From the NCBI RefSeq assembly GCF_029227855.1, contig NZ_CP074356.1: DNA of 64,000 nt, one strand, 5' to 3'. The number at the start of each line of letters is the position of its first letter. Positions within the stretch are counted from its first letter, which is position 1. Positions 1-13,091 of the stretch are shown one piece after another. Origin of the DNA: Escherichia coli (GTDB lineage: Bacteria; Pseudomonadota; Gammaproteobacteria; Enterobacterales; Enterobacteriaceae). The notes under the pieces are model-generated. The model was not told where the DNA came from and did no database searches. It saw only the letters and a list, made by a program, of their open reading frames with translations. The translations under genes were made by a program, and so were the position numbers.

Positions 1-102
1 GACACTGCGCTGGATCGTCTGATGCAGGGTGCACCGGCACCGCTGGCTGCAGGTAACCCGGCATCTGATGCCGTTAACGATTTGCTGAACACACCAGTGT
101 AA
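1..102 (+). CDS. C-terminal end of head scaffolding/protease gene (lambda C/Nu3-like); 5' end lies outside the window
   Basis: Open frame from window start to TAA at 100-102; lies immediately upstream of D as in the lambda head operon; only 33 codons visible. Confidence 0.55.
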   Translation, partial: DTALDRLMQGAPAPLAAGNPASDAVNDLLNTPV

Positions 103-111
103 GGGATGTTT

Positions 112-444
112 ATGACGAGCAAAGAAACCTTTACCCATTACCAGCCGCTGGGCAACAGTGACCCGGCTCATACCGCAACCGCGCCAGGCGGATTGAGTGC
201 GAAAGCGCCTGCAATGACCCCGCTGATGCTGGACACCTCCACCCGTAAGCTGGTTGCGTGGGATGGCACCACCGACGGTGCTGCTGTCGGCATTCTTGCT
301 GTTGCTGCTGACCAGACCAGCACCACGCTGACGTTCTACAAGTCCGGCACGTTCCGTTATGAGGATGTGCTCTGGCCGGAGGCTGCCAGCGACGAGACGA
401 AAAAACGGACCGCGTTTGCCGGAACGGCAATCAGCATCGTTTAA
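112..444 (+). CDS. D: head decoration protein D (lambda gpD)
   Basis: ORF 106-444; product from ATG 112 begins [11 protein letters not shown] and matches lambda gpD over its length (110 aa). Confidence 0.93.
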
Positions 445-499
445 CCTTACCCTTCATCACTAAAGGCCGCCTGTGCGGCTTTTTTTACGGGATTTTTTT

Positions 500-775
500 A
501 TGTCGATGTACACAACCGCCCAGCTGCTGGCGGCAAATGAGCAGAAATTTAAGTTTGATCCGCTGTTTCTGCGTCTCTTTTTCCGTGAGAGCTATCCCTT
601 CACCACGGAGAAAGTCTATCTCTCACAAATTCCGGGGCTGGTAAACATGGCGCTGTACGTTTCGCCGATTGTTTCCGGTGAGGTTATCCGCTCCCGTGGC
701 GGCTCCACCTCTGAATTTACGCCGGGATATGTCAAGCCGAAGCACTTAGCATGGCTTTCTGAGGCTTTCGTGTAG
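500..775 (+). pseudogene. E: major capsid protein E, 5' fragment (first ~82 codons), interrupted at 735-744 by an inserted element
   Basis: From ATG 500 the product MSMYTTAQLLAANEQKF...GYVKPKH is lambda gpE N-terminus; after the core at 735-744 the frame continues into unrelated sequence and stops at 775. Confidence 0.92.
735..744. repeat. attL core / target-site direct repeat (AGCCGAAGCA)
   Basis: Identical 10-mer recurs at 11864-11873; prophage E sequence resumes exactly after the right copy. Confidence 0.85.
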
Positions 776-872
776 CTGCTGGTTTTTACACTTAATCTTT
801 TGATAATAAAGAATAAGTTTATCTGGCGCTTTCACTGAATTTTCCTCGTTATCTGTGTGTTGCAATCATCTC

Positions 873-892
873 TGTATTGCAGCTTGTATTGC
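873..892 (+). promoter_or_regulatory. tandem TGTATTGC motifs (TGTATTGCAGCTTGTATTGC), putative integrase arm-type binding sites overlapping the int 5' region
   Basis: Near-identical 20-mer (TGTATTGCAGCATGTATTGC) recurs at 11769-11788 just inside the other att core. Confidence 0.5.
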
Positions 893-907
893 TTTTTGGG
901 GCTAAAA

Positions 908-2143
908 ATGGCTGGCGAGAACAAACTGAGCGACAAAGCGCTTAAAGGATATCTGGGGAAACCCAGAGAAAAGCAGATCACCATTGCTGATGGAAAGGGG
1001 CTTTCTATTCGTGTGAGTACTAAAGGGGCTGTGAGCTTTGTTTTCTTCTACAGGTTAGCAGGTGGCCGGGCTGCTCCGGTCTGGCTAACGTTGGGTAAAT
1101 ATCCTGATATGTCACTCAAACAGGCAAGGGAAAAGCGCGACGAGTGCCGTGGTTGGTTGGCTGACAAACGTGATCCGCGTATCCAGATTAAGATTCAGGC
1201 TGAAGAACGCTTAAAGCCGGTCACAGTGGAGGATGCACTAAATTACTGGTATGAAAATTACTGTAAGGTGCGTCGTAAAACTCATGCTGTAACGCTTGGC
1301 AGATTTCGAAAGCATATCTTTCCCTATATCGGTCATTTGCCCGTAAATGACACTCACCTATATGAATAGCTGGACTGTTTTGACCGAATTAAACGTAATG
1401 CACCAGTTATGGCGGCGTATGTTTTTTCTGACACTAAATTAGCTCTTCGTTTTTGTCGGGTACGCCAGTACGCGACGTGTGATGCTTTAAAGGATTTGCG
1501 CATGAGTGATGTGGGGCAGATTGCAGGTAAGCGGGATCGGGTTCTGGATGAGGTCGAACTCGGCCAGCTCTGGAAGGCAATTTTTGTCGAGCCTGATTTA
1601 AAACTAATGTCTGAATACACGCGAAAAATGTTTGTGCTTTGTACAGTATTTGGATGTCGAATGAGTGAAGCCCGATTATCAGAATGGAGCGAATGGGATC
1701 TCGAAAGTTGGGTTTGGACTGTGCCAAAAGATCACTCAAAAACTGGTGTTGAAATCGTCAGACCAGTACCTGAAATTCTACGACAGTGGGTAACGGATGT
1801 TCACGAAGAGACAAAACATACTGGTTATGTGCTGGGAAGTCTGCGAATTAGAGAAAGCGTAAGCAAGATTGGGGGGAAAATCGGTAAACGTTTGGGCCAT
1901 GAAAAACAATGGTCACTACACGACCTTAGAAGAACGCTATCTACTCATCTAAGTGATCTCGGTGTTGAATTTTATGTAGTAGAACAACTGTTAGGCCATG
2001 CGCTACCTGGCGTGGCAGGTGTTTACAACCGGAGTAAGTTTATGGCTAAAAAACTGGATGCTCTGGAACTCTGGACTACATATCTCAATAGCATCGCAGC
2101 TGCTGATTCAAAAGTGACAATCCTCAAACAAAAGGCTGGTTAG
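908..2143 (+). pseudogene. int: P4-type tyrosine integrase interrupted by an in-frame amber codon (TAG at 1367-1369)
   Basis: ORFs 857-1369 and 1409-2143 are in the same frame, separated by one TAG; N-terminal arm-binding region (MAGENKLSDKALKGYLGK...) and C-terminal catalytic region with HDLRRT, LLGHA and VYNRS (Tyr) motifs. Confidence 0.85.
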
Positions 2144-2144
2144 C

Positions 2145-2375
2145 ATGAAAAAAATGGCAATTGTTGATAAAAAGGGTCTGGAGTACATTCCTAACATTGA
2201 CCGAATGATCCGTGAGAAAGAATGTCGGGAGCTAACTACTCTTGCGAACAGCACACGCTGGAAGCTGGAGAAGGAAGGAAAATTTCCTAAGCGGATCAAG
2301 ATTGGTTCCACTGCTGTTGCATATCGTCTTTCAGAAGTGCAGGCATGGATTCGAGGTGAGTGGGAAACAACTTAA
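2145..2375 (+). CDS. alpA: AlpA-family HTH transcriptional regulator / excisionase-like protein
   Basis: 76-aa product with AlpA-type HTH (RIKIGSTAVAYRLSEVQAWI); immediately downstream of int as in P4-like and PICI elements. Confidence 0.8.
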   Translation: MKKMAIVDKKGLEYIPNIDRMIREKECRELTTLANSTRWKLEKEGKFPKRIKIGSTAVAYRLSEVQAWIRGEWETT

Positions 2376-2382
2376 CTATTAG

Positions 2383-3213
2383 GTGGGCATTGTGGCTATA
2401 TTTCATTATACAGATCTTTTTGGTTTGAAAGGTATATTAGACTCTAATTCTTTATGGGCTACAAACATATATTTCTTAAATGATAAAGAGGAGTCTAACC
2501 ATGGATGTGAATGCTTTCGAAATACAATTAAAATAGTTGATGACAATATCATTCCAAAAGATAAGAAAACTATTTTGCTCAAGTCTCTTGACATGTATGA
2601 GAAAGGGAGGTTACAAAAAGAAAAAGGGATTGATAAACATGTTTATAGCATCTCTTTTTGTAAGGAAAACGATAAGTTAAGTCAGTGGAGAGGTTACGGA
2701 AATAAACAGGGTGTTTGCATTGAGTTTGATGCGGATGAACTTGTGAGCTTTTCTCAAAATATTTATTTAAATTGTGTTGCACATGATGTTATATATTCAA
2801 ATAATAACGATATTACTAAGATGAGTAAGGAGTTGGGAGAGTTTTTTTCTTGTAATGGTATTAATATTAAAGAAATGAATGATCATTTTGTAACAATGGT
2901 CTCTACGTATCAATTTATATCTAAATACATCCCATTTTTTAAACATCCTAGTTTTATCGAAGAGAATGAATTTAGATTGGTATTTACTCCGTGGATGCAA
3001 ATGCCAGATGTGCACTTCAGAATAAATAATAATGGGATCATCCCTTATATCATCATTGATAATAAAGATAATAGAAAGTTACCAATTAAAAGCATTACAA
3101 TTGGCCCGACAAACGATTATGATTTCATTGAGGCTGGTATAAAAATGTTCTTGGATTCAAGAGGATTTAGTTCTGTGGAAATTAAATCCTCATCAATTCC
3201 ATTCAGGGGGTAA
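2383..3213 (+). CDS. uncharacterised 276-aa protein, AT-rich accessory gene (candidate defence/abortive-infection cargo)
   Basis: Long ORF with GTG start at 2383 (alternative GTG at 2392 has AGGTGG 5 nt upstream); visibly AT-rich relative to int and primase; no confident family match by eye. Confidence 0.6.
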   Translation: MGIVAIFHYTDLFGLKGILDSNSLWATNIYFLNDKEESNHGCECFRNTIKIVDDNIIPKDKKTILLKSLDMYEKGRLQKEKGIDKHVYSISFCKENDKLSQWRGYGNKQGVCIEFDADELVSFSQNIYLNCVAHDVIYSNNNDITKMSKELGEFFSCNGINIKEMNDHFVTMVSTYQFISKYIPFFKHPSFIEENEFRLVFTPWMQMPDVHFRINNNGIIPYIIIDNKDNRKLPIKSITIGPTNDYDFIEAGIKMFLDSRGFSSVEIKSSSIPFRG

Positions 3214-3344
3214 GGATTAACACTTTTAATCTATGATATTATAAAAATGGTGGATAAAGGCGACCAGAATTGGTCGCCAATGTGAGTATATAGTTAGCCT
3301 TAATCAGAATACGAGGTTATCGCCTGATAGGCAATGTGAACAGT

Positions 3345-3701
3345 TCAATATTTAGGTGGTTCAACAAGAGCGTTTATCATTGCTCTCAAATTATCGCGAA
3401 CACTTATCCAAGTCTGTTCTGCTCGTTCTAACTCATCAGTGTACAACTTTAATGTTTTATCTATGCCATATGTGGCTATTAAATTTATAGCTTCTTGTAA
3501 TTTTTCAGGATTATTCCTTCTTGGGGGAGTGAATATACCACGGATTTTTCCGGTAATTAAAGCTTTACGGTGTCTACATAGAATACCTTTACTTCCTGCT
3601 GGACAATTACAAGTCATGATTAGCGAGCCAGAATCGTTTGATACAGTGACTATGTATACATCCAAACTACTGCTACTTGTTGCGAAGAATTCGTATTTCA
3701 T
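3345..3701 (-). CDS. SWIM-type zinc-finger protein (118 aa)
   Basis: CxC...CxH motif (CNCPAGSKGILCRH); AAGGAG Shine-Dalgarno about 8 nt upstream of the ATG; downstream of the Arc-like gene on the same strand. Confidence 0.6.
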   Translation of the reverse strand: MKYEFFATSSSSLDVYIVTVSNDSGSLIMTCNCPAGSKGILCRHRKALITGKIRGIFTPPRRNNPEKLQEAINLIATYGIDKTLKLYTDELERAEQTWISVRDNLRAMINALVEPPKY

Positions 3702-3728
3702 GTGTTAGCTCCTTGACTTCAATTATTC

Positions 3729-3920
3729 TTATCCTTTTGGTTCAATACCGCGCCGTAGCAGCTCTTTGCGCCCTAATTCTTTAAGCCAGTTGGCTAGGCT
3801 TATGCCGTCGCTCTGCGCTTCTTTGTCGAATTGCTCTTTTAGCTCTGGAGAAATTCGCATTCTGAATTGTGGAGATTGCCCATCACCCTTAGGACTTTTA
3901 TCGCGTTTGATCGTTGACAA
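3729..3920 (-). CDS. Arc/MetJ-type ribbon-helix-helix DNA-binding protein (candidate satellite repressor)
   Basis: C-terminal part ...PQFRMRISPELKEQFDKEAQSDGISLANWLKELGRKEL resembles Arc repressor; start uncertain (TTG at 3920 with AGGTGG upstream, or ATG further in; ORF track gives 3729-4043); divergent from the + strand operon that starts at 4060. Confidence 0.55.
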   Translation of the reverse strand: MSTIKRDKSPKGDGQSPQFRMRISPELKEQFDKEAQSDGISLANWLKELGRKELLRRGIEPKG

Positions 3921-4059
3921 GTGACCACCTATTGAATTAGCCTTTTCATTGTTAGGTGACCACCTTAACACGGGGGCACTTAAAAAAGCAAAGCCCGAAG
4001 GTGCTGGGAACACCAACGGGCTTCTAACCACCAACGATAGCAACAGTATCGAGGTAGCT

Positions 4060-4263
4060 ATGAGAAATCATACCACACACCCGCAAGGGCGGGACCCGCA
4101 CAACCTGAATAAATACATCTGGCGTTTTATCGCCTTGAGTACGGCACAACCGCGCATGATTACCATCGAGGCCATCAGCGAACAGGAAGCCCGCCAGCAA
4201 TCCCCAACTGGCTGCGTGATGGTATTCGCCGCCCGTATTCGTCAGGAGGTGTGCCGTGCTTAA
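4060..4263 (+). CDS. hypothetical small protein (first gene of operon leading to primase)
   Basis: ATG 4060 preceded by GAGG; in frame with ORF 3949-4263. Confidence 0.45.
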   Translation: MRNHTTHPQGRDPHNLNKYIWRFIALSTAQPRMITIEAISEQEARQQSPTGCVMVFAARIRQEVCRA

Positions 4264-4441
4264 AACCTTCCGTGTATTTGCCCGAGCTGTTAACCCACTG
4301 GGCCACACAATTGGTATCACTCAGAACGTGAAGGCTGTTAATGTTCAGACGGCTATTGCTGCGGTGAGAAGCGAATCATCAGAATATGGCTTATCACAAG
4401 TCATTATTTCAGCAGTGTATGAATTAAAAGAGGTGCATTAA
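4256..4441 (+). CDS. hypothetical small protein (61 aa)
   Basis: ORF whose start overlaps the upstream stop (translational coupling). Confidence 0.4.
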   Translation: MLKTFRVFARAVNPLGHTIGITQNVKAVNVQTAIAAVRSESSEYGLSQVIISAVYELKEVH

Positions 4442-4632
4442 TGCAGGAAATCACATTACACGAAGCCGCTGAACGTGCGCACCAGACAGAAATTATTTGC
4501 CGCCTTCTTGAGGTATACCCGAACAAAATTACAGATGCTGATATATCCGCGCTGGCGAGCCTACTGGCGCGCCTTTCGGGAAGTGTCGCTAGTTTCCTGA
4601 TTGAGGAAGAAAGTAAGCTGGTGGGGGATTAA
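4441..4632 (+). CDS. hypothetical small protein (63 aa)
   Basis: ATG overlaps upstream stop (TAATG); co-directional operon. Confidence 0.45.
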   Translation: MQEITLHEAAERAHQTEIICRLLEVYPNKITDADISALASLLARLSGSVASFLIEEESKLVGD

Positions 4633-4854
4633 ATGAATACAGAACGGGAAGTCTTTTTTAAATTGTTAGCATGTGCAGAAAGTTCATTAACTTTAAATAA
4701 TTCAGCAAAAGCAATATTAAATATGTGGCTTGATTGCATAAATGACAATGAAGATGCAAATATTGCTTATGGCCTGTTGTCACTTATTGATGAATCAGCA
4801 GAAAAACTCAATGACGCAATAAATAGTGCCCTGCTATCAAATAAGTCGAGTTAA
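4633..4854 (+). CDS. hypothetical small protein (73 aa), AT-rich
   Basis: ORF directly abutting the upstream stop. Confidence 0.4.
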   Translation: MNTEREVFFKLLACAESSLTLNNSAKAILNMWLDCINDNEDANIAYGLLSLIDESAEKLNDAINSALLSNKSS

Positions 4855-4871
4855 GTCGAGGAATAAATAAT

Positions 4872-5171
4872 ATGGAAATGAAAAATTCTGGCTTTATTGC
4901 CAGCGGCCCCGCTCGGCCTGAATTTATGAACGGCGATATTTACCGCGATAAATACGGCGGCACGGTAACGATTAAAGGCGTGGCAGAACGGCGCATCACT
5001 TACCGCCGTGAGGGGTATAGCTATGACTGCGTGATGCCTGTTTATCAGTTCCGGCGTGATTTTTCCCTGGTATATGCCGCACCCCGCAGTAAGCCCATCA
5101 GCAGGGAAAAAGCGCGGGGAAACATCCAGAAAATGAAAAGCATGATTAACGCATTCAGGGGCAAAAAATGA
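4872..5171 (+). CDS. hypothetical protein (99 aa)
   Basis: ORF whose stop overlaps the primase start. Confidence 0.45.
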   Translation: MEMKNSGFIASGPARPEFMNGDIYRDKYGGTVTIKGVAERRITYRREGYSYDCVMPVYQFRRDFSLVYAAPRSKPISREKARGNIQKMKSMINAFRGKK

Positions 5172-6919
5172 AACTGGCACCGAACTTAAAAAAACAGCCA
5201 CGCGACAGACTGACAGAGGTAATCATCTTTGCAGGTAGTGATGCGTGGAGCCATGCGAAAGAGTGGCGGGAATGGGCGGGTAAACATATTGCCGCCGACG
5301 ATGTGCCGCCTGTCGTGCTGGCTGATGAGCAACTGAAAAATATCACCGATTACCGGATCATTGATGAAGATCGTCAGTGTGTGCGTGTTTACCGCGCAGG
5401 ACATATCACAGAGCACAGCATGACGCAGATTGTTACGTTACTGGCTGTGGCTGGAGTGAAGACCGTACACGAATACGCGGGGATTACTGACACCAGCCCA
5501 GTGGATTTATCCGAGCAGTTGCCGCGACTCAAAGAGGAATGCGAGCGTGGGGAAAGTCTGGTGCTTAATCTTCCGACGAAGCAAAAGGCGCAACTTTCAC
5601 AGATGGCAGACAGTGAACGTGCACAACTACTTGCCGATCGCTTTGATGGTGTGTGTGTTCATGCAGAAAGTGAAATCGTCCACGTATGGCGCGGCGGGGT
5701 ATGGTGTCCGGTCAGCACAATGGAGCTGAGCCGCGAAATGGTGGCGATCTATTCAGAGCACAGGGCCACGTTCAGCAAACGTGTAATCAATAACGCCGTG
5801 GAAGCGTTAAAAGTTATTGCCGACCCCATGGGGGAGCCGTCCGGTGATTTGCTACCGTTCACTAATGGTGTGCTTAACCTGAAAACGGGGGAATTTTCTC
5901 CGCACTCGCCGGAGCACTGGAGCACCACGCACAATGGCATTGAGTACACGCCACCAGTAGCAGGGGAAAACATCCGCGATAATGCGCCAAATTTCCATAA
6001 ATGGCTTGAACATGCTGCAAGAAAAGACCCGCGCAAGATGATGCGTATATGTGCCGCGTTATACATGATTATGGCGAACCGCTACGACTGGCAGATGTTC
6101 ATTGAGGCCACCGGAGACGGGGGAAGCGGTAAGAGTACATTTACCCATATTGCCACCCTGCTTGCTGGCAAACAGAACACCGTAAGCGCGGAGATGACAT
6201 CACTCGATGATGCAGGAGGGCGCGCGCAGGTTGTCGGGAGTCGTCTTATCGTCCTTGCCGATCAGCCGAAATATACGGGGGAAGGCACGGGCATCAAGAA
6301 AATCACGGGAGGCGATCCCGTTGAAATTAACCCGAAATATGAGAAGCGATTCACGACGATAATAAGGGCGGTGGTACTGGCAACCAATAACGACCCGATG
6401 ATCTTTACCGAACGGGCCGGAGGTGTGTCACGCCGTCGGGTGATTTTCCGGTTCGACAACATTGTAAGGGAGGACGAAAAAGACAAGGAATTACCGGAAA
6501 AGATAGCGGCAGAAATCCCCGTAATTATCCGCCGCTTGCTGGCTAATTTTGCTGACCCTGAAAAGGCACGGGCTTTATTACTGGAACAGCGTGACGGTGA
6601 TGAAGCTCTGGCAATAAAGCAGCAAACGGATCCGGTTGTTGAGCTTTGCGCGGCGCTGGAGTTTCTGGAGGAAGCTCGTGGGCTAATGATGGGCGGTGGT
6701 GGTGACACCGTGAAGTACACGACCAGAAACAGCCTTTACCGTGTCTATATGGCCTTCATGGCATACACAGGAAAGGGGAAATGTTTGAGCGTGAATGAGT
6801 TCGGAAAGGCTATGAGGTCAGCGGCGAAAGTTTACGGATATGAATATATTACGCGAAAAGTTAAGGGAGTCACGCAGACCAACGCAACGACTACTGATGA
6901 TTGCGATGCGTTTTTATAA
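5168..6919 (+). CDS. P4-alpha-type replication primase/helicase (phage/plasmid primase, P4 family C-terminal domain)
   Basis: 583-aa product with Walker A GDGGSGKST and surrounding blocks typical of P4-family primase C-terminal domains; followed by iterons. Confidence 0.85.
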   Translation: MKLAPNLKKQPRDRLTEVIIFAGSDAWSHAKEWREWAGKHIAADDVPPVVLADEQLKNITDYRIIDEDRQCVRVYRAGHITEHSMTQIVTLLAVAGVKTVHEYAGITDTSPVDLSEQLPRLKEECERGESLVLNLPTKQKAQLSQMADSERAQLLADRFDGVCVHAESEIVHVWRGGVWCPVSTMELSREMVAIYSEHRATFSKRVINNAVEALKVIADPMGEPSGDLLPFTNGVLNLKTGEFSPHSPEHWSTTHNGIEYTPPVAGENIRDNAPNFHKWLEHAARKDPRKMMRICAALYMIMANRYDWQMFIEATGDGGSGKSTFTHIATLLAGKQNTVSAEMTSLDDAGGRAQVVGSRLIVLADQPKYTGEGTGIKKITGGDPVEINPKYEKRFTTIIRAVVLATNNDPMIFTERAGGVSRRRVIFRFDNIVREDEKDKELPEKIAAEIPVIIRRLLANFADPEKARALLLEQRDGDEALAIKQQTDPVVELCAALEFLEEARGLMMGGGGDTVKYTTRNSLYRVYMAFMAYTGKGKCLSVNEFGKAMRSAAKVYGYEYITRKVKGVTQTNATTTDDCDAFL

Positions 6920-6933
6920 AAAATGGCAATGGT

Positions 6934-7161
6934 TATCTACCTTGTCTACCTGACTGAAAGAAAATACTTTTATTTCAATGTATTAATGCAGGTAGATAAC
7001 TATTTTTCACTGTCTACCTGTTATCTACCTTATCTACCCATTTTTGTAGACAGGTAAGGAGACGGGTAGAGATGAGGTAGACAGCTATTTGGGGCTGTCT
7101 ACCTCCCTGAAACCCGCGCCATTACTGGCCTGATAACTAATCAGGTAGACAAGGTAGACAA
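6934..7161. repeat. replication-origin iterons (about 12 copies of T[GT]TCTACC / GGTAGA[CT]A in both orientations)
   Basis: Dense cluster of the 8-9-bp motif in the non-coding stretch immediately downstream of the primase gene. Confidence 0.75.
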
Positions 7162-7208
7162 GGTGGTGGTGCACAAAAAACTTTTTAAACGAGGGGGTAA
7201 AAATAAAA

Positions 7209-7466
7209 ATGCACACTTCAGGAAAACTGAACAAACATATAAAGCCACATTACCGCGCCCTTGATATGGCTGAACACTGGCTAAGGGTGGCGATTAAGGC
7301 AATAGACCGCAACGCCGGGGAAGGATACGCGAAAGCACATCCCGAACTGATAAGCGCATTCATGACAACGGCGGCTGCAAACTTTGCCACGCTGACCGAA
7401 CGGGAGATTGCTGAAGCGGAGGAAGTGACAACAATCAATATTAAGTCCGGAGAGCAGGCAGCATGA
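7209..7466 (+). CDS. hypothetical protein (85 aa)
   Basis: ORF whose stop overlaps the ssb start (ATGA). Confidence 0.45.
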   Translation: MHTSGKLNKHIKPHYRALDMAEHWLRVAIKAIDRNAGEGYAKAHPELISAFMTTAAANFATLTEREIAEAEEVTTINIKSGEQAA

Positions 7467-7912
7467 CGGCGCAAATATCAGTTTACGGGCGGTTGGTGGA
7501 CGACCCGCAGACAAAACAGACCAGCAAGGGCACCCCCATGACGCTGGCGCGTATGGCGGTATCACTGCCCTGCAGTCAGTCGGATGACGGTCTGGCGACG
7601 TTGTGGTTATCTGTCCTGGCGTTTGGCAGACAAGCCGACGCGCTGGCAAAGCATCACAAAGGCGAACTCCTGAGCGTGGCGGGTAACATGCAGATGAGCC
7701 AGTGGACTGGACAGAACGGCGAAACGCGGCAGGGCTGGCAGGTTATCGCAGACAGCGTAATCAGTGCGCGATCGGTGCGACCGGGCGGCAAAAAAGGCCA
7801 ACAGGGGCAGGCTACTGACGCACTGAACAGAGCAAAACAACAGGCAGATCAGCAAGGAAGCCAGCCACCAGAGGGAGATAATGAGCAATGGGGAGATGAT
7901 ATCCCGTTTTAA
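7463..7912 (+). CDS. ssb: single-stranded DNA-binding protein (SSB)
   Basis: 149-aa product with OB-fold-like N-terminal region and acidic C-terminal tail ending DDIPF. Confidence 0.75.
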   Translation: MTAQISVYGRLVDDPQTKQTSKGTPMTLARMAVSLPCSQSDDGLATLWLSVLAFGRQADALAKHHKGELLSVAGNMQMSQWTGQNGETRQGWQVIADSVISARSVRPGGKKGQQGQATDALNRAKQQADQQGSQPPEGDNEQWGDDIPF

Positions 7913-8128
7913 ATATTGCCAATAAAAAAAGCCGGAAAAAATAAATTTTCCGGCATGCTACATAAATCCCGACCAAAGGGAGTGAAGATATTAACACTAA
8001 TTGTCCGCACTGAAGTTGTCACACCAAAACTTTATACAACATTGCACTCGGTTGCATGTGTTCGCATGACAAATATCGGTGATAGCATATATCCACAATT
8101 ATTTTTAATGAATGCAAAGAGGATGCGT

Positions 8129-9169
8129 ATGGTTGATTTATATTCGCCTACTCAGCTTGTACAGGTAGTTAATGCTGTAGATGTACAAAAACAACTAAAT
8201 GCGTTGTTTACCAGTTTGTTTTTTACTCGCTCGGTAATGTTTGAATCGCGCGATATTATTCTTGATACAATCGACGATCCAAATATCCCAATTGCAGCGT
8301 TTTGTTCTCCTATGGTGGGTAGTAAAGTTTCACGTGACGAAGGGTACGAATCAAAAACAATTCGTCCAGGCTATATGAAGCCGAAAAGCAGCATTGATCC
8401 AAATAAGTTAGCTGTGCGCCCTGCTGGTGTGTCACCTGAGCAATACAATGCTTTTGGGGCGCGTAATATTAAAGTTAAACAGGCGATTGTAAATCAGGCT
8501 AAAGCTATTCGTGCACGTATTGAATGGCTTGCTGTTCAGGCAATCACAACGGGGAAAAATATCATTGAGGGCGATGGTATTGAACGTTATGAGCTGGACT
8601 GGAATATAAAACCACAAAATATCATCACTCAGTCTGGCGGTACTGAGTGGTCAGGTAAGGATAAAGAAACTTTTGATCCAAATGATGATATTGAGAGCTA
8701 CGCAGAATTTAGTGAGGGCGTCACTAATATCATCATTATGGGTGGTAATGTATGGAAGAAATACCGTTCATTCAGAGCGATAAAAGAGGCTTTGGATACC
8801 CGTCGTGGTTCTAATTCCGAACTGGAAACGGCCCTTAAAGACCTTGGTGATTCGGTGAGTTTTAAAGGGTATATGGGCGATGTTGCGATTGTTGTTTACA
8901 GCGGGCGTTATACCGACGAGGACGGAACAGAAAAACATTTCCTTGATCCTGATTTGATGGTGCTTGGCAATACGGCTCTTCAGGGGATTGTCGCCTATGG
9001 CGGTATTCAGGATCCGGAGCTAATCCGAATGGGGCTGACTAAAGCCGAACTTGCACCGAAAAACTATATTGTGCCTGGTGATCCGGCTATTGAATATGTG
9101 CAGACACATTCAGCACCACAGCCAATACCGGCCCGCATCAATCGTTTTGTTACCGTTCGCATTGGCTAA
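8129..9169 (+). CDS. major capsid protein paralogue (lambda gpE-like) encoded by the satellite
   Basis: ORF 7916-9169; from ATG 8129 (GAGG upstream) the product aligns collinearly with the prophage's own E, sharing blocks ITQSGGTEWS, DTRRGS.SELETA.KDLG and GDVAIVVYSG. Confidence 0.85.
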   Translation: MVDLYSPTQLVQVVNAVDVQKQLNALFTSLFFTRSVMFESRDIILDTIDDPNIPIAAFCSPMVGSKVSRDEGYESKTIRPGYMKPKSSIDPNKLAVRPAGVSPEQYNAFGARNIKVKQAIVNQAKAIRARIEWLAVQAITTGKNIIEGDGIERYELDWNIKPQNIITQSGGTEWSGKDKETFDPNDDIESYAEFSEGVTNIIIMGGNVWKKYRSFRAIKEALDTRRGSNSELETALKDLGDSVSFKGYMGDVAIVVYSGRYTDEDGTEKHFLDPDLMVLGNTALQGIVAYGGIQDPELIRMGLTKAELAPKNYIVPGDPAIEYVQTHSAPQPIPARINRFVTVRIG

Positions 9170-9178
9170 GGGGGAGCA

Positions 9179-9520
9179 ATGGCTACTCATTACACTGAAC
9201 TCATGGCTGGCACTGAAGCACTGGTGACTACGCTGGGGATATTTTCAGCTAATAAAGGGGTAATTCCTGCATTTACGCCACTGATGCAGGAAGATGCAAC
9301 AGGTGCACTGGTGGTATGGGATGGTTCGAGCGTAGGTAAAGCGGTTTATGTTTCCGCTGTACAAATCGACACCGCGAAAAAAACACAGGCTCAGGTCTAT
9401 AAGACAGGTGTCTTAAATGTTGATGCTCTGAACTGGCCTGAGTCTGTTAAAGAACTGTCAGTAAAGGTTGCAGCGTTTGTTGGCTCAGGTATTTCTGTTC
9501 AGCCGCTGGCTCGTGTGTAA
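9179..9520 (+). CDS. head decoration protein paralogue (lambda gpD-like) encoded by the satellite
   Basis: 113-aa product alignable with prophage D at 112-444 (LVVWDGSSVGKAV versus [13 protein letters not shown]; shared C-terminal G.AISV region). Confidence 0.75.
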   Translation: MATHYTELMAGTEALVTTLGIFSANKGVIPAFTPLMQEDATGALVVWDGSSVGKAVYVSAVQIDTAKKTQAQVYKTGVLNVDALNWPESVKELSVKVAAFVGSGISVQPLARV

Positions 9521-9531
9521 AGGGGGATACA

Positions 9532-9915
9532 ATGCAGAATGATTACAATGACCTTAAGCCAATTGCCGAAATGATGTACCCGAATCAAGCTGTAGAGGAA
9601 TTAAAAGCTATCGCTGACAAAATGTGTTTAAGCGAGCGCCTTGTTGATATGAATCAGGTGATGGAAATTACAACCCTGAGTCGTCGTACACTGCTAAACC
9701 TTGAGGCTAGTGGAGAGTTCCCGGAGCGTGTGCAGGTTACGGAAGGGCGTAAGGCCTGGTATTTAAGTGAAGTGATCGACTGGATAAATAATATTCCTCG
9801 CGCTTCTGAATATTGCCGCGTACCTGTCCCAAAAAAGCCAGATGCGGCGCTATGCCTCAAGATTGAGCGTGTACGCCGCAATGCACGGGATGGTCGCTAT
9901 AAGCTGATTGGTTGA
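9532..9915 (+). CDS. AlpA-family HTH protein adjacent to cos (candidate packaging-redirection or regulatory protein)
   Basis: 127-aa product with AlpA-type HTH (ITTLSRRTLLNLEASGEFPERVQV) and a basic C-terminal extension; immediately upstream of the cos site. Confidence 0.55.
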   Translation: MQNDYNDLKPIAEMMYPNQAVEELKAIADKMCLSERLVDMNQVMEITTLSRRTLLNLEASGEFPERVQVTEGRKAWYLSEVIDWINNIPRASEYCRVPVPKKPDAALCLKIERVRRNARDGRYKLIG

Positions 9916-9923
9916 TGAAATTA

Positions 9924-9950
9924 GGACCCGCTCTGGCTGGCGGGTCCTTT
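9924..9950 (+). terminator. hairpin terminator-like element after gene 9532-9915
   Basis: GGACCCG...CGGGTCC stem followed by TTT. Confidence 0.4.
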
Positions 9951-10145
9951 CCGGCGATCCAGAACGTTACGGGGCGTCAGGCGCGCAGTTTTTCGCTATT
10001 TGTGAAAATTTTCCTGTTTAAGGCGTTTCCGTTCTTCTTCGCCGTAACTTAATGTTTTTATTAAAAACACCCCCTAAAAAGAAAGGAAACGACAGGTGCT
10101 AAAAACAGGCTTTTTGGCCTCTGTCGTTTCCTTTCTCTGGTTTTG
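9940..10145. other. lambda-type cos site (cosN-equivalent at about 9972-9983; cosB R3-I1-R2-R1 to about 10140)
   Basis: Stretch TTTTCGCTATTTGTGAAAATTTTCCTGTTTAAGGCGTTTCCGTTCTTCTTCG...AAAGAAAGGAAACGACAGGTGCT...GGCTTTTTGGCCTCTGTCGTTTCCTTTCTCTG closely matches the left end of phage lambda (cosB) from memory; cosN 12-mer reads GGGCGTCAGGCG instead of GGGCGGCGACCT; no Nu1 gene follows. Confidence 0.8.
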
Positions 10146-10513
10146 TTGCCATCCGTCGCGGTCTATCACCAGAAAAAATCTTATCCCTGAGTTGAATCAG
10201 GCCCTATTCAGAAGCGGCCAATAACGCGCCGCTAGCTTCACTTCATAGTTATGGCCTACTTCTGCGCCATTGCAATTGCTTTATGCGCCTTGATGGTGGA
10301 ATATAGAGCAAGCAGTTTGCGAATAACAAAGTTTCATATGTTTTTTGCTGTGTGGCTAGACAACTTTACAGCAGAGTTTTGTGTCAGTTCTTTATGTGTG
10401 CAAGCAAGCTTGAGGGGGAATTACTTCTGGCTGTATCTTTGCTTAAGAACAGCAATAATTTAATCATAAGGAAATGTATATAAGCCTGATTAAATTTCAG
10501 GCTTATTGAAATG

Positions 10514-11656
10514 TTAACTCCTTATTAGAGAGTAAATTCCATCCTCTTTAAGGAAGTCTATTACTTCAAAGAATGAGATAAAGAATTCCCAAGAACCAAA
10601 AGCATATGCATGAATTTCGTAAGGTGCAAAATGGAATCTAAATCCATCACTATTTATTGTGAACGAGTCTAAGTTACTATCCATGATACCCGTTGCAAAC
10701 GTACTAATGTCGTCCTCACTTGGTTTTTCACCAGTTTTCTCCCAAAATTCACGAGCTGATTCAGAGATTATTTTTTGTTTTATCTTATTAATCGCTTCTT
10801 GCTCTTTCCCTTCGGTAAATACATCCCATAAACTAAATTTGTATGCGTAGTCATCCTTGGTTATTACGAAATTACTAGTTTCAAAATGACTGTTAGGGTG
10901 TGCTGCTCCCGCACCATACCAATGTACGGAATGAAGGATGCTCATGACATTTTCGTTACAGTATGAGATGTTATAACTTTCATTATAGGAACTAGTGTAA
11001 GTGTGTTTATATTCTTCATCCCAATATGGTGTTCCTGGCCATAGTGATGTGCGTTCAGAAAAAATATGTAAAGCCGCTTTTCCTGAAAAGTAATCACTAA
11101 TGAGTTTTGCTGATTTCGGTAATGTATGGCTTTCAATTCTTGGATATGCTATTTCAATTTCATGCCCTGGGATCTTGTTATATTCTTCCTTGAAAACCTC
11201 GCTGCTAAAGTTAAATGGCCCATAAGTGATACCTTGAGATATTTCAAGTTTTTGTTGCGATGCTGCTAATCTTAAAGATCTAGATAAAATGTCCCAACCA
11301 TCATTTCTCTTAAAATCAATGAATTGGAGCTTGCTTGATATGTAGGCGGGTACTTCGCAATCATCAATAAGTAATGGTATCACGAACACATCATCTGGTT
11401 TGTAATACTTTAGTTTATCAATGGCGTCATTTATTTCGCGGCGAATATAACCATTTTTCTGAGTGCTCACTTTGCTAAGGATAAGGATTATCAAGTTTGA
11501 ATTAGCGAAGTTTTTTTGGATTTCATAATCCCAGTTTACGCCAGCGGGTATATCTTTTACATCCATCCAAGGGGAATATCCTCCACTTTTTAGCCTTTCA
11601 TAGATTTCTTCAGTTATCGTTTCATCTTCTTTTGCATGAGCAAGAAAAATTTTCAT
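10514..11656 (-). CDS. TIR-domain protein with C-terminal domain of unknown function (candidate anti-phage defence gene)
   Basis: 380-aa product; N-terminal about 135 aa looks like a TIR domain (MKIFLAHAKEDE...ILILSKVS...REINDAIDKL); C-terminal about 240 aa unassigned (contains HWYGAGAAHP motif); AT-rich; last gene before attR. Confidence 0.7.
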   Translation of the reverse strand: MKIFLAHAKEDETITEEIYERLKSGGYSPWMDVKDIPAGVNWDYEIQKNFANSNLIILILSKVSTQKNGYIRREINDAIDKLKYYKPDDVFVIPLLIDDCEVPAYISSKLQFIDFKRNDGWDILSRSLRLAASQQKLEISQGITYGPFNFSSEVFKEEYNKIPGHEIEIAYPRIESHTLPKSAKLISDYFSGKAALHIFSERTSLWPGTPYWDEEYKHTYTSSYNESYNISYCNENVMSILHSVHWYGAGAAHPNSHFETSNFVITKDDYAYKFSLWDVFTEGKEQEAINKIKQKIISESAREFWEKTGEKPSEDDISTFATGIMDSNLDSFTINSDGFRFHFAPYEIHAYAFGSWEFFISFFEVIDFLKEDGIYSLIRS

Positions 11657-11768
11657 TGAATATTCCTTTATAATTTAACTAATTAAGTGAAGGAGGCTTT
11701 ACTTGGCTGTGTTAGAAAAAATTCGGTTTGTTTTTTGTACGATGCCAAGAAGGCTTTTCCCTAACCAT

Positions 11769-11788
11769 GTATTGCAGCATGTATTGCT
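11769..11788 (+). promoter_or_regulatory. tandem TGTATTGC motifs (putative integrase arm-type sites, right arm)
   Basis: TGTATTGCAGCATGTATTGC, 19/20 identical to 873-892. Confidence 0.5.
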
Positions 11789-11863
11789 ACGTAATTCTGC
11801 ACCCTCTCATTTATAAAATAAATCTCTGTTAAATCAAGTATCTTTTTTCTATTTGACTCATGT

Positions 11864-11873
11864 AGCCGAAGCA
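11864..11873. repeat. attR core / target-site direct repeat (AGCCGAAGCA)
   Basis: Identical to 735-744; E sequence (HEVNPQMTL...) resumes from this point. Confidence 0.85.
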
Positions 11874-12699
11874 TGAGGTGAATCCGCAGATGACCCTGCG
11901 TCGCCTGCCGGATGAAGATCCGCAGAATCTGGCGGACCCGGCTTACCGCCGCCGTCGCATCATTATGCAGAACATGCGTGACGAAGAGCTGGCCATTGCC
12001 CAGGTCGAAGAGATGCAGGCAGTTTCTGCCGTGCTTAAGGGCAAATACACCATGACCGGTGAAGCCTTCGATCCGGTTGAGGTGGATATGGGCCGCAGTG
12101 AGGCGAATAACATCACGCAGTCCGGCGGCACGGAGTGGAGCAAGCGTGACAAGTCCACGTATGACCCGACCGACGATATCGAAGCCTACGCGCTGAACGC
12201 CAGCGGAGTGGTGAATATCATCGTGTTTGATCCGAAAGGCTGGGCGCTGTTCCGTTCCTTCAAAGCCGTCAAGGAGAAGCTGGATACTCGTCGCGGCTCT
12301 CATTCCGAGCTGGAGACAGCGGTGAAAGACCTGGGCAAAGCGGTGTCCTACAAGGGGATGTATGGCGATGTGGCCATCGTCGTGTATTCCGGACAGTACG
12401 TGGAAAACGGCGTCAAAAAGAACTTCCTGCCGGACAACACGATGGTGCTGGGGAACACTCAGGCACGCGGTCTGCGCACCTATGGCTGCATTCAGGATGC
12501 GGACGCACAGCGCGAAGGCATTAACTCCTCTGCCCGTTACCCGAAAAACTGGGTGACCACCGGCGATCCGGCGCGTGAGTTCACCATGATTCAGTCAGCA
12601 CCGCTGATGCTGCTGGCTGACCCTGATGAGTTCGTGTCCGTACAACTGGCGCAATCGTGGCCCTTCGGGGCCATTTTCTCTCTGTGGAGGAGTCCATGA
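11864..12699 (+). pseudogene. E: major capsid protein E, 3' fragment (about 260 codons), with the lambda stop position read as CAA
   Basis: Product ...EVNPQMTLRRLPDEDPQ...DEFVSVQLA is lambda gpE from about residue 83; 500-744 plus 11874-12654 equals 1026 nt, the lambda E length; frame runs on 15 codons to TGA at 12697-12699. Confidence 0.9.
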
Positions 12700-13091
12700 C
12701 GAAAGATGAACTGATTGTCCGTCTCCGGTCGCTGGGTGAGCAACTGAACCGTGATGTCAGCCTGACGGGGACGAAAGAAGAACTGGCGCTCCGTGTGGCA
12801 GAGCTGGAAGAGGAGCTTGATGACACGGATGACGCTGCCGGTCAGGATACCCCTCTCAGACCGGAAAATGCGCTGACCGGACATGAAAATGAGGTGGTAT
12901 CAGAGCAGCCGGATACCATGATTGATACGGCTGCTCTGGTCACGGTCGTGGCACTGGTGACGCTGCATACTGATGCACTTCACGCCACGCGGGATGAACC
13001 TGTGGCATTTGTGCTGCCGGGAACGGCGTTTCGTGTCTCTGTCGGTGTGGCAGCCGAAATGACAGAACGTGGCCTGGCCAGAATGCAATAA
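12696..13091 (+). CDS. FI: DNA-packaging/head assembly protein FI
   Basis: Product MTKDELIVRLRSLGEQLNRD... matches lambda gpFI. Confidence 0.9.
   Translation: MTKDELIVRLRSLGEQLNRDVSLTGTKEELALRVAELEEELDDTDDAAGQDTPLRPENALTGHENEVVSEQPDTMIDTAALVTVVALVTLHTDALHATRDEPVAFVLPGTAFRVSVGVAAEMTERGLARMQ

What the first reader, a model, noticed from the sequence alone, without database searches (positions are those of the whole stretch)
3345..4060. Arc-like repressor plus SWIM zinc-finger operon divergent from the replication operon
An Arc/MetJ-type ribbon-helix-helix gene followed by a SWIM-type zinc-finger gene is transcribed leftwards from a ~140-bp region (3921-4059) from which the small-gene/primase operon runs rightwards. 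This is the architecture of a genetic switch; the RHH protein is a candidate master repressor that would sense the helper.
Basis: inference. Interest (0 to 1): 0.45.

Follow-up and report, generated by a model that had tools for sequence, protein, structure and literature searches.

The report
Arc-like repressor switch in phage satellite
A small, mostly unannotated Arc-type DNA-binding protein and its two matching operator sites sit over the promoter of the replication genes of an E. coli phage satellite, giving a concrete candidate for the repressor that Gram-negative satellites of this kind were not known to have.

Summary
A 63-aa ribbon-helix-helix gene (3920-3729, minus strand, TTG start, not annotated by PGAP) is followed 27 bp later by a 118-aa SWIM zinc-finger gene (3701-3345). 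Both are divergent, across 139 bp, from the icd-like/primase operon of a helper-embedded PICI.

Two 12-bp palindromes, O1 (3919-3930) and O2 (3954-3965), are the only such sites in 64 kb. They bracket the -10 of a TTGACA-18-TAGCCT rightward promoter.

Across about 60 related loci both operator cores change together. The change tracks the two beta-strand residues that contact bases in Arc, giving at least seven specificity classes. This is strong comparative evidence for an autoregulated repressor of the replication operon.

- SWIM is an optional passenger. It is always found directly behind such a regulator, but most RHH genes lack it.
- The "spacer" also encodes a structured RNA on the RHH strand, probably a SymR-like antisense RNA to the icd-like leader.

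The same RHH family also guards chromosomal symE toxin genes. Sensing of the helper is untested, and AlpA remains the known activator.

The parts
3345..3701 (-). SWIM zinc-finger gene (118 aa), second gene of the leftward operon. N-terminal three-strand plus helix SWIM domain with a CxC-x8-CxH motif, then one long C-terminal helix.
   Evidence: ORF. Pfam SWIM 24.1 bits, above the cut-off. phrog_13130 matches full length. Invariant C31/C33/C42/H44. AF2 model pLDDT 67.
3702..3728 (-). 27-bp intercistronic gap with the AAGGAG Shine-Dalgarno of the SWIM gene (plus-strand 3709-3714). No terminator lies in it.
   Evidence: Sequence. The RHH-type gene and SWIM are separated by 27 bp in L065-L069 and 30 bp in L073.
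3729..3920 (-). Arc-like ribbon-helix-helix gene (63 aa, TTG start at 3920-3918, stop TAA at 3731-3729). Beta-strand PQFRMRI (residues 17-23), helices about 25-37 and 42-56.
3919..3930 (.). Operator O1, AAGTGACCACCT. It lies in the spacer of the rightward promoter and over the Shine-Dalgarno and start codon of the RHH gene.
3914..3943 (+). Putative rightward promoter P_R: -35 TTGACA (3914-3919), 18-bp spacer, -10 TAGCCT (3938-3943). Predicted start is near 3950.
   Evidence: TTGACA is invariant in the five-sequence alignment and in nearly all loci. At the 18-bp position the hexamer has T1 in 33/52, A2 in 42/52 and T6 in 39/52 loci. It is not found by the strict consensus scan. Inference.
3954..3965 (.). 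Operator O2, AGGTGACCACCT, a palindrome apart from the central AC. It lies at about +4 to +16 of P_R and overlaps the -10 of the leftward promoter.
3962..3970 (-). Putative leftward promoter P_L for the RHH-SWIM operon: extended -10 TGTTAAGGT. Its last bases are the first bases of O2.
   Evidence: A TGnTA(A/G)nGT-like element abuts O2 on the RHH strand in all specificity classes. Inference.
3978..4062 (-). Putative ~85-nt cis-antisense RNA to the 5' leader, Shine-Dalgarno and start codon of the icd-like gene. It has a 5' stem-loop carrying the anti-SD, then a terminator hairpin (3987-4029, core 3991-4023) and a U-run (about 3981-3986).
   Evidence: The hairpin is more stable on this strand in 48/48 loci, with 121 G-U pairs against 22. 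RNAalifold gives 14 pairs, 12 with compensatory changes. dG -36.6, z -6.2, against -23.5, z -2.6 for the other strand. No Rfam family matches. The transcript itself is inferred.
4067..4075 (-). Extended -10 (TGGTATGAT) of the putative antisense RNA, inside codons 3-6 of the icd-like gene.
   Evidence: A -10-like hexamer (TATGAT, TATATT, TAGAAT, TAGACT, TAGTAT or TACTAT) lies 4-10 nt before the reverse-complemented start codon in all locus types, although the coding sequences differ. Inference.
4060..6919 (+). Rightward operon controlled from this region: the icd-like gene (4060-4263), four tightly packed small genes including a DUF4222 gene, and a D5_N/DUF5906 primase (5168-6919).
   Evidence: No plus-strand terminator-like site lies between 4060 and 9221.
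3259..3278 (-). Hairpin GGCGACC-AAUUCU-GGUCGCC followed by UUUAU on the minus strand. Likely terminator of the RHH-SWIM operon. It has no U-run on the plus strand, so rightward read-through from alpA/DUF2971 is not obviously blocked.
   Evidence: dG -15.2, z -4.6. Sequence. Inference.

Best explanation
The 63-aa protein is an Arc-type ribbon-helix-helix repressor. Dimers bind two 12-bp sites, O1 (3919-3930) and O2 (3954-3965).

O1 fills the spacer between the -35 (TTGACA) and the -10 (TAGCCT) of the rightward promoter. O2 covers that promoter's start region. Occupancy of both should therefore shut off the icd-like/small-gene/primase operon and keep the satellite from replicating.

The same two sites overlap the repressor's own -10 (O2) and its ribosome-binding site and start codon (O1), so the repressor limits its own synthesis and that of the co-transcribed SWIM protein.

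A second layer is a structured RNA made from the repressor's strand. It starts inside the first codons of the icd-like gene and ends at a conserved hairpin plus U-run just upstream of O2. It would pair with the icd-like leader, as SymR does with symE.

Shown here, computationally:
- the genes, the fold assignment and the sites;
- the co-variation of the sites with the base-contacting residues;
- the strand of the RNA structure.

Inferred:
- the promoters and the transcripts;
- actual binding and repression;
- how repression is lifted. The likeliest routes are AlpA-driven rightward transcription running antisense through SWIM-RHH into the replication operon, or a helper-encoded anti-repressor.

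The SWIM protein is an optional second gene expressed with the repressor. Its role is unknown.
For: Fold and family:
- PHROG Arc-like repressor, 1.2e-6.
- Family profile against PDB: best hit is P22 Arc, E 0.0014, residues 11-58 against Arc 2-49, with PQF-x-x-R aligned.
- AF2 gives helices at 25-37 and 42-56, and the top Foldseek hits are Arc, with prob up to 1.0 and TM 0.84.

Real gene:
- The 63-aa length is conserved across genera.
- Third-position bias of 305/223/1114.

Conserved position:
- The gene lies about 140 bp divergent from the small-gene/primase operon in Providencia, Dickeya, Enterobacter, Morganella and E. coli O157 islands.

Operators:
- Only two hits in 64 kb against 0.09 expected.
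- In 43 of 52 loci the O1 core equals the O2 core (at most 1 mismatch) at 33-35 bp spacing.
- The core class tracks residues 18 and 20, which align with Arc Q9 and N11:
  - Q,R: GTG(GT/AC)CAC
  - Q,K: GTGGCCAC
  - P,H: GTGTACAC
  - A,Q: GT(G/A)(T/C)GTAC
  - T,Q: GTACGTAC
  - M/L,N: GTATAGAC
  - P,Q and Q,Q: GTAATTAC
- R, K or H at position 20 goes with G at core position 3, and Q with A.
- P17, F19 and R22 are invariant.
- In L021 the two centres are flipped relative to each other, as a symmetric dimer would allow.

Promoter geometry.

RNA layer.

Same design in the model satellite EcCICFT073:
- A small divergent YlcI/YnfO gene plus a second small gene.
- TTGACG-17-TATAGT, with GTGGGCCACACCT twice around the -10.

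Literature:
- The cf-PICI paper has no mention of a repressor, and the HE-PICI paper none of an RHH or SWIM gene.
Against: - No experiment is available. Binding, promoter activity and transcripts are all inferred.
- Neither promoter passes the strict consensus scan. The P_R -10 matches only 3 of 6.
- Adjacent sequences co-inherit, so part of the protein/operator correlation is linkage. The argument rests on both sites changing in concert, and on the changes falling on base-contacting residues.
- The 35-bp centre-to-centre spacing (about 3.3 turns) does not suggest simple side-by-side cooperativity.
- The same RHH family sits next to symE toxin genes outside satellites, so its ancestral job may be toxin-gene control rather than life-cycle control.
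- Only 208 of about 1300 E. coli genomes that carry the conserved icd-like leader have this RHH at the DNA level.
- AlpA, not a repressor, is the experimentally established regulator of these satellites.
Confidence: 0.72

Rival explanations
1. The RHH, together with the antisense RNA, is a dedicated safety catch on a toxic first gene (Icd-like cell-division inhibitor, or SymE-type toxin). This would be a toxin-control or addiction cassette that satellites picked up. Control of replication would then be a side effect of the primase genes lying downstream, not a life-cycle switch.
For: - In 18 of 53 one-per-species loci the RHH is divergent from a symE homologue, with the same operators, leader and hairpin.
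- Kawano et al. 2007 already noted SymE-family genes next to MetJ/Arc RHH factors, and that symE is held down at several levels (PMC1891008).
- The first rightward gene is an NCBIfam Icd-like cell-division inhibitor.
Against: - In the islands the icd-like gene is packed, with overlapping or abutting stops and starts, against the genes that run to the primase. No plus-strand terminator or strong consensus promoter lies between them. Shutting P_R therefore shuts replication as well.
- The two readings are not exclusive.
Confidence: 0.3
2. RHH plus SWIM is a self-contained two-gene cargo module: a type II toxin-antitoxin pair or an anti-phage system, with the RHH as antitoxin and autoregulator and SWIM as the effector. 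It would lie in the variable zone of the island and be unrelated to replication control.
For: - NCBI names the homologues 'HicB family antitoxin'.
- The order is RHH first with a short gap, as in many type II modules.
- SWIM is found only directly behind an RHH-type gene.
- There is a weak PADLOC hit to candidate system PDC-S62, 4.9e-5.
- The neighbours DUF2971 and the TIR protein look like defence cargo.
Against: - None of the 53 one-per-species RHH loci screened has a SWIM gene, and every locus read in detail lacks it.
- The operators sit on the rightward promoter, not only on the RHH's own.
- SWIM pairs with RHH proteins of five specificity classes, and with a DUF3950 protein, so it is not tied to one partner.
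- There is no HicA, and the 63-aa protein has no room for the N-terminal HicB domain.
Confidence: 0.1
3. The paired repeats are sites for another protein (AlpA, the replication initiator, or a helper factor), and the RHH gene merely lies next to them.
For: - The repeats lie at the head of the replication operon.
- AlpA must act somewhere to switch the island on (PMC6092414).
Against: - The site cores differ between loci in step with the RHH beta-strand residues 18 and 20, while the rest of the protein stays similar.
- The PICI origin is reported downstream of pri, not here (PMC10111431).
- The same sites occur at symE loci that have no AlpA or primase.
Confidence: 0.05

Closest known systems
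Phage P22 immI region (Arc and Mnt ribbon-helix-helix repressors at the overlapping Pant/Pmnt promoters)
   Same: - A small RHH repressor whose closest solved relative is Arc itself.
- Operators lie inside a pair of overlapping, oppositely directed promoters.
- The repressor is predicted to shut both the outward operon and its own gene.
   Different: - Two separated 12-bp palindromes 35 bp apart, instead of one 21-bp Arc operator bound by a tetramer.
- The repressor is divergent from its target operon, not its first gene.
- The target is a satellite replication operon headed by an icd-like gene, not an antirepressor.
- The comparison with P22 promoter geometry rests on my own knowledge of that system, not on a tool result.
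SaPI/PICI master repressor Stl (Rpr) of Gram-positive satellites
   Same: - Position and logic: a repressor gene divergent from the excision/replication operon, next to the int side of the island (PMC6092414).
- Many specificity variants exist.
   Different: - An RHH fold of 63 aa, not an HTH protein.
- Derepression by a helper protein is not shown here.
- Gram-negative PICIs are known to need the activator AlpA.
- The RHH is present in only a subset of the E. coli islands.
symE/symR type I toxin-antitoxin locus of E. coli (Kawano, Aravind, Storz 2007, PMC1891008)
   Same: - A cis-antisense RNA whose promoter lies in the first codons of the target gene and which covers its ribosome-binding site. 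I recall this promoter placement from that paper. The passages I retrieved do not state it.
- A transcriptional repressor on top of that.
- Members of this RHH family sit next to true SymE_toxin genes with the same leader.
   Different: - The repressor is an RHH rather than LexA.
- The first gene in the window is Icd-like, not SymE.
- No match to any Rfam family, SymR included.
- The RNA itself has not been observed.
Helper-embedded PICI Eco567.11capE, and the four-zone Gram-negative PICI plan (Tommasini, Mageeney, Williams 2023, PMC10111431)
   Same: The island in the window is of this type: about 11 kb, integrated in the lambda-E-like capsid gene of a lambdoid prophage, with int, alpA, a variable zone, the primase zone, and its own capsid E and decoration genes.
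   Different: That paper describes the variable 'Bro zone' and RNA repressors of the C4/IsrK type. It does not mention the RHH gene, its operators or the SWIM gene.

Membership tests
Ribbon-helix-helix (MetJ/Arc) DNA-binding proteins | Sequence similarity to known RHH families | tested here: met
   phrog_228 'Arc-like repressor' at 1.2e-6. Family profile against PDB: P22 Arc, E 0.0014, over residues 11-58. Pfam HicB (its RHH segment) scores 20.3 bits, just under the 21-bit cut-off.
Ribbon-helix-helix (MetJ/Arc) DNA-binding proteins | Strand-helix-helix fold of about 45 residues | tested here: met
   AF2 gives an extended segment at 17-24 and helices at 25-37 and 42-56, with pLDDT 85-92 over residues 21-60. 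Foldseek top hits are Arc, AmrZ, CopG and NikA, with prob up to 1.0 and TM 0.84. E-values are weak because the domain is tiny.
Ribbon-helix-helix (MetJ/Arc) DNA-binding proteins | Dimer inserts a two-stranded sheet into the major groove of repeated operator sites | tested here: inconclusive
   No binding assay is possible. The indirect support is strong: paired operators whose cores co-vary with beta-strand residues 18 and 20 in at least seven classes.
HicB antitoxin (the name NCBI gives the homologues) | N-terminal HicB (RNase H-like) domain and an adjacent HicA toxin gene | tested here: not met
   The protein is 63 aa, and only the RHH segment of the Pfam model (positions 18-48 of 51) matches. 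No HicA-like gene lies next to it in any locus read. The name is an over-annotation.
SWIM zinc finger | CxCxnCxH signature in a strand-rich domain followed by a helix | tested here: met
   PF04434 at 24.1 bits against the 19.6-bit cut-off, residues 16-49. C31, C33, C42 and H44 are invariant. The AF2 secondary structure is E2-8, E15-21, E28-31, H34-37, H43-50 (low confidence).
PICI master repressor (Stl/Rpr type) | Repressor gene divergent from the replication operon, with operators between them | tested here: met
   Gene order and operators.
PICI master repressor (Stl/Rpr type) | Repression lifted by binding of a specific helper-phage protein | not testable with these tools
   No data. The operator motif has no further copy in the helper prophage part of the window.
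PICI master repressor (Stl/Rpr type) | Homology to Stl/Rpr proteins | not tested
   No direct comparison was made. No Stl-like or HTH family appeared in the Pfam, PHROG or NCBIfam scans.
SymE/SymR-like type I module | Structured cis-antisense RNA overlapping the 5' end of the target gene | tested here: inconclusive
   Strand-specific conserved hairpin. Stable two-hairpin fold with a U-run, z -6.2. A conserved -10 lies in the early codons. No transcript data and no Rfam match.
SymE/SymR-like type I module | Target gene is a SymE (AbrB-fold) toxin | tested here: not met
   In the window the target is an Icd-like protein (NCBIfam NF033153, 6.3e-19). SymE is the target in other loci of the same RHH family.
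Helper-embedded PICI (HE-PICI) | int-alpA-primase island integrated inside a late gene of a lambdoid prophage | tested here: met
   The capsid E gene is split at about 775 and about 11878. RefSeq annotation of an island that is 100% identical over window 3200-4300 (the integrase differs at 4 of 1236 nt) marks both halves as partial major capsid protein. It matches the description of Eco567.11capE.

The most novel reading that the evidence does not exclude
This RHH family, together with the YlcI/YnfO proteins that occupy the same slot in EcCICFT073, would be the long-missing master repressor of Gram-negative PICIs and cf-PICIs. It would come in many 'immunity' specificities set by two beta-strand residues. 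The SWIM protein, found only directly behind such a regulator, would be the partner that couples the repressor to the helper phage, either as a sensor or receptor for a helper signal or as a modulator of the repressor. AlpA would then act downstream of, or through, this switch.
Probability: 0.15. Interest if true: 0.8.

Novelty: new variant of a known kind. Interest (0 to 1): 0.55.

Why it matters
For Gram-negative phage-inducible chromosomal islands the published picture is activation by AlpA. It carries the explicit statement that a global repressor has not been found.

This work gives a concrete, easily testable candidate. It is a 63-aa gene that standard annotation misses in E. coli because of its TTG start, and a spurious antisense ORF is called instead.
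- It has mapped operators and predicted promoters.
- Its read-out code (residues 18 and 20 against the 8-bp core) predicts which islands are cross-immune.
- It is present in an O157 capsid-forming island with the gene order of EcCIEDL933.
- An analogous layout exists in EcCICFT073.

It also links satellite replication control to the symE-type toxin control cassette. It points to an unrecognised antisense RNA upstream of more than a thousand E. coli icd-like genes.

Practically, the operator and repressor pairs are a ready set of small orthogonal repressors.

Tried and rejected
- Rfam, over 1-13000 at E<=1 and over 3900-4200 at E<=10. Nothing relevant matched (no C4, IsrK or SymR), only chance hits.
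- Strict sigma-70 and terminator consensus scans found no sites in 3200-4500. The promoters proposed here are weaker than that tool's threshold and rest on conservation.
- The longer 104-aa ORF starting at 4043 was rejected. The N-terminal extension is not conserved, and homologues are 63 aa.
- The plus-strand ORFs antisense to the RHH were rejected. These are the PGAP pseudogene in strain 10, a 247-aa 'hypothetical protein' in O157 and a 308-aa ORF in O26. Their composition is odd. They run antisense through whichever regulator gene is present. The substitution pattern favours the RHH frame, at 862:378 synonymous to non-synonymous against 689:553.
- SWIM function:
  - The AF2 model is poor (pLDDT 67), and Foldseek against PDB gave nothing below E 2.5.
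  - A profile search found only 17 clusters, all about 116-118 aa and with no informative fusions.
  - PADLOC gave only a weak partial hit.
- Fold of YlcI/YnfO: no PDB sequence match, and its PHROG has unknown function. Its RHH nature is only my reading of the sequence.
- Literature searches for an RHH or other repressor in Gram-negative PICIs found none in the held library.
- The RHH is rare in phage records, with 3 hits.
- I could not confirm from the paper text that locus L005 is EcCIEDL933 itself.
Full report
**1. What the window holds**

The first 12 kb is an E. coli island. Its genes, in order, are:
- int (908-2143) and alpA (2145-2375);
- a DUF2971 gene (2383-3213);
- two minus-strand genes (3345-3701 and 3729-3920);
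- a rightward run: an icd-like gene (4060-4263), small genes, a DUF4222 gene and a D5_N/DUF5906 primase (5168-6919);
- ssb, a lambda-E-like capsid gene, a D-like decoration gene and a second alpA-like gene;
- a minus-strand TIR gene.

The island lies inside the major capsid gene of a lambdoid prophage. The N-terminal part of that gene ends at 775 and the C-terminal part resumes at 11878. RefSeq annotation of an island that is 100% identical over the region searched (3200-4300; strain 10, NZ_CP048330) marks both halves as partial capsid genes.

This is the 'helper-embedded PICI' configuration described for Eco567.11capE (PMC10111431). That paper defines integration, 'Bro', replication and late zones. 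It does not mention the two minus-strand genes.

**2.

The SWIM gene:
- It is 118 aa and passes Pfam's cut-off at 24.1 against 19.6 bits.
- Its CxC-x8-CxH residues are invariant in six homologues of 49-74% identity.
- It has an AAGGAG Shine-Dalgarno 7 nt before its ATG.

The RHH gene:
- It is 63 aa with a TTG start at 3920.
- Homologues of 65-89% identity and the same length occur in Providencia, Proteus, Morganella, Dickeya, Erwinia, Xenorhabdus, Pantoea and Aeromonas.
- Several homologues have ATG at the same position.
- Among nine orthologues, substitutions fall 305/223/1114 on codon positions 1/2/3. Synonymous codon changes number 862 against 378 non-synonymous.

PGAP does not call this gene in E. 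coli. It annotates plus-strand ORFs antisense to it.

**3. It is Arc-like**
- PHROG 228 'Arc-like repressor', 1.2e-6.
- A profile of 15 family members finds P22 Arc as the best solved relative. E is 0.0014, with residues 11-58 aligned to Arc 2-49 and 'PQF-x-x-R' aligned.
- The AF2 model has an extended segment followed by helices 25-37 and 42-56. Its best Foldseek matches are Arc structures, then other RHH proteins.
- The NCBI name 'HicB family antitoxin' reflects only the RHH segment of that Pfam model. There is no HicB N-terminal domain and no HicA gene.

**4.

The 139-bp region holds AAGTGACCACCT (O1, 3919-3930) and AGGTGACCACCT (O2, 3954-3965), 35 bp apart. These are the only two matches in 64 kb, against 0.09 expected.

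I collected the equivalent region from about 60 loci, drawn from:
- E. coli genomes;
- contigs encoding distant homologues;
- one genome per species (53 loci).

In 43 of 52 loci with the standard N-terminus, the 8-bp core next to the start codon recurs 33-35 bp away. It recurs in direct or inverted orientation, with at most one mismatch.

The core differs between loci, and it tracks the residues at positions 18 and 20 of the beta-strand P17-x-F19-x-[MIV]-R22. These positions align with the base-contacting Q9 and N11 of Arc:

| Residues 18, 20 | Operator core |
|---|---|
| Q,R | GTG(GT/AC)CAC |
| Q,K | GTGGCCAC |
| P,H | GTGTACAC |
| A,Q | GT(G/A)(T/C)GTAC |
| T,Q | GTACGTAC |
| M/L,N | GTATAGAC |
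| P,Q and Q,Q | GTAATTAC |

Further loci found through the SWIM gene fit the same table.

Other points:
- Arg, Lys or His at position 20 goes with G at core position 3, and Gln with A.
- P17, F19 and R22 are invariant.
- In L021 the two centres are mutually flipped, as expected if a symmetric dimer reads each site.

Linkage alone would make neighbouring sequences correlate. It would not keep two separated sites identical to each other while both change, and it would not place the protein changes on the DNA-reading residues.

**5. Promoter geometry (inferred)**

*Rightward promoter.* TTGACA (3914-3919) is almost invariant. It overlaps the RHH start codon and an always-TCA serine codon. Eighteen bp downstream lies a -10-like hexamer, TAGCCT in the window. 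Across loci its position 1 is T in 33/52, position 2 is A in 42/52 and position 6 is T in 39/52. O1 therefore fills the spacer of a rightward promoter, and O2 lies at about +4 to +16.

*Leftward promoter.* On the other strand, an extended -10 (TGTTAAGGT, 3970-3962) abuts and overlaps O2 in every specificity class. This fits a leftward promoter for RHH-SWIM that the repressor would also shut.

Neither promoter reaches the strict consensus threshold of the scan tool. No plus-strand terminator-like site lies between 4060 and 9221, and the genes to the primase are tightly packed. So P_R probably drives the whole replication module.

**6. A second layer: an RNA on the RHH strand**

The right half of the 'spacer' (3978-4059) is conserved in more than 1000 E. 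coli genomes that carry an icd-like gene, with or without the RHH.

Its hairpin (core 3991-4023) behaves as follows:
- It is more stable on the RHH strand in 48 of 48 distinct loci, at a mean of -20.9 against -14.4 kcal/mol. It has 121 G-U pairs there against 22 on the other strand.
- RNAalifold gives 14 pairs, 12 with compensatory changes.
- On the RHH strand it is followed by a U-rich run.

A -10-like hexamer, often with an extended TG (TGGTATGAT at 4075-4067 in the window), lies in the first codons of the rightward gene in all locus types.

The 85-nt minus-strand RNA from 4062 to 3978 folds into two hairpins with dG -36.6 and z -6.2. The plus strand gives -23.5 and z -2.6.

This is the layout of SymR over symE. 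No Rfam family matches, and the transcript is not demonstrated.

**7. The family is wider than satellites**

Among the 53 one-per-species loci:
- 17 have a primase or replication gene in the divergent operon, mostly with int and alpA on the other side;
- 18 are divergent from a symE toxin homologue;
- the rest face other small genes.

Kawano et al. (PMC1891008) had noted SymE-family genes next to MetJ/Arc-type factors. The cassette (RHH, two operators, antisense-RNA leader, toxic first gene) thus looks like a module that satellites use at the head of their replication operon.

**8. Relation to model satellites**

An O157 capsid-forming island has the gene order of EcCIEDL933: int, alpA, icd-like, DUF927 primase, ssb, PerC, HK97 capsid. 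It carries the same Q,R-type RHH at 87% DNA identity, unannotated.

EcCICFT073 has a small YlcI/YnfO-family gene in the same slot, plus a second small gene. Both are divergent from its icd-like gene. Its intergenic region reads TTGACG-17-TATAGT, with GTGGGCCACACCT twice around the -10.

The literature says a global repressor in Gram-negative PICIs is 'unclear' and that AlpA is the activator (PMC6092414). I found no paper describing this RHH.

**9. SWIM**
- The family is tiny, with 17 clusters, all about 116-118 aa and all in Enterobacterales.
- In all eight contexts examined it lies 27-30 bp behind an RHH-type gene in a PICI. The partners are Arc-like proteins of five specificity classes, and once a DUF3950 protein.
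- The reverse does not hold. None of the 53 one-per-species RHH loci has a SWIM gene. In the loci read in detail, other islands have a 57-62-aa gene (phrog_21027), a 50-aa ORF or nothing in that slot.
- The model shows a SWIM domain plus one long helix, but with low confidence, and it finds no structural relatives.
- I treat SWIM as an optional gene expressed with the repressor. Its strict placement leaves open a functional tie to the switch.

**10. Verdict**

The finding is real, and its central inference (a repressor/operator switch at the replication operon) is well supported by comparative evidence. The helper-sensing claim is untested. SWIM is not a core part. The region carries an additional RNA layer.

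It is a new variant of a known kind: an Arc-type repressor switch, used as a satellite replication control and shared with symE loci.

Noticed in passing
window 776-11877 (the island); capsid gene halves at 473-775 and 11878-12699: The whole int-alpA-primase island sits inside the lambda-E-like major capsid gene of a lambdoid prophage, and it carries its own E-like capsid and D-like decoration genes (about 8130-9169 and 9179-9520). This matches the published helper-embedded PICI Eco567.11capE (PMC10111431).
   Followed up: partly
window 1367-1369: The island integrase has an in-frame amber codon. Codon 154 is TAG here and TGG in strain 10, whose island is otherwise nearly identical (4 differences in 1236 nt). 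This copy may therefore be unable to excise, which would leave the helper's capsid gene permanently split.
   Followed up: partly
window 3978-4075, minus strand: There is a conserved two-hairpin RNA with a U-run, and a -10 element inside the first codons of the icd-like gene. It is probably an unrecognised SymR-like antisense RNA. The leader is conserved in more than 1000 E. coli genomes, and no Rfam family matches it.
   Followed up: yes
window 3730-3996, plus strand; L005 5558-6301; L007 5133-6059: RefSeq annotates long plus-strand 'hypothetical protein' ORFs or pseudogenes that run antisense through the RHH gene, or through the YlcI/YnfO gene. They are probably spurious calls that hide the real small gene.
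   Followed up: partly
window 10514-11656, minus strand: A 380-aa protein with an N-terminal TIR domain lies at the right end of the island. Its PADLOC hits include TIR-pAgo-type and ThsB-like models, the best at 1.6e-17. It is likely anti-phage cargo.
   Followed up: no
window 2383-3213, plus strand: A DUF2971 protein (276 aa) lies between alpA and the SWIM gene, with a weak PADLOC hit to candidate PDC-S31. It is variable cargo that is absent from most related islands.
   Followed up: no
window 10075-10142: A long, near-perfect hairpin lies between the second alpA-like gene and the TIR gene. It is picked up only as chance miRNA-like Rfam hits. It is probably a bidirectional terminator.
   Followed up: no
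L071 (E. coli CFT073, NC_004431.1 from 1380000), locus coordinates 243-860: The model satellite EcCICFT073 has the same layout. A YlcI/YnfO-family gene (474-653, minus) and a second small gene (243-416, minus, phrog_21027) are divergent from its icd-like gene. The intergenic region has TTGACG-17-TATAGT, with the repeat GTGGGCCACACCT at 720-732 and 743-755.
   Followed up: partly
L010 5584-7242 (food metagenome contig): A member of the RHH family is divergent from a true SymE_toxin gene. It lies next to a reverse transcriptase (RVT_1) and a PRTase-CE gene, which looks like a retron-type neighbourhood.
   Followed up: no
window 9532-9915: A second AlpA/excisionase-like gene (phrog_2790) lies at the far end of the island. 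This recalls the two alpA genes with different roles reported for EcCIMP1 (PMC11773190).
   Followed up: no
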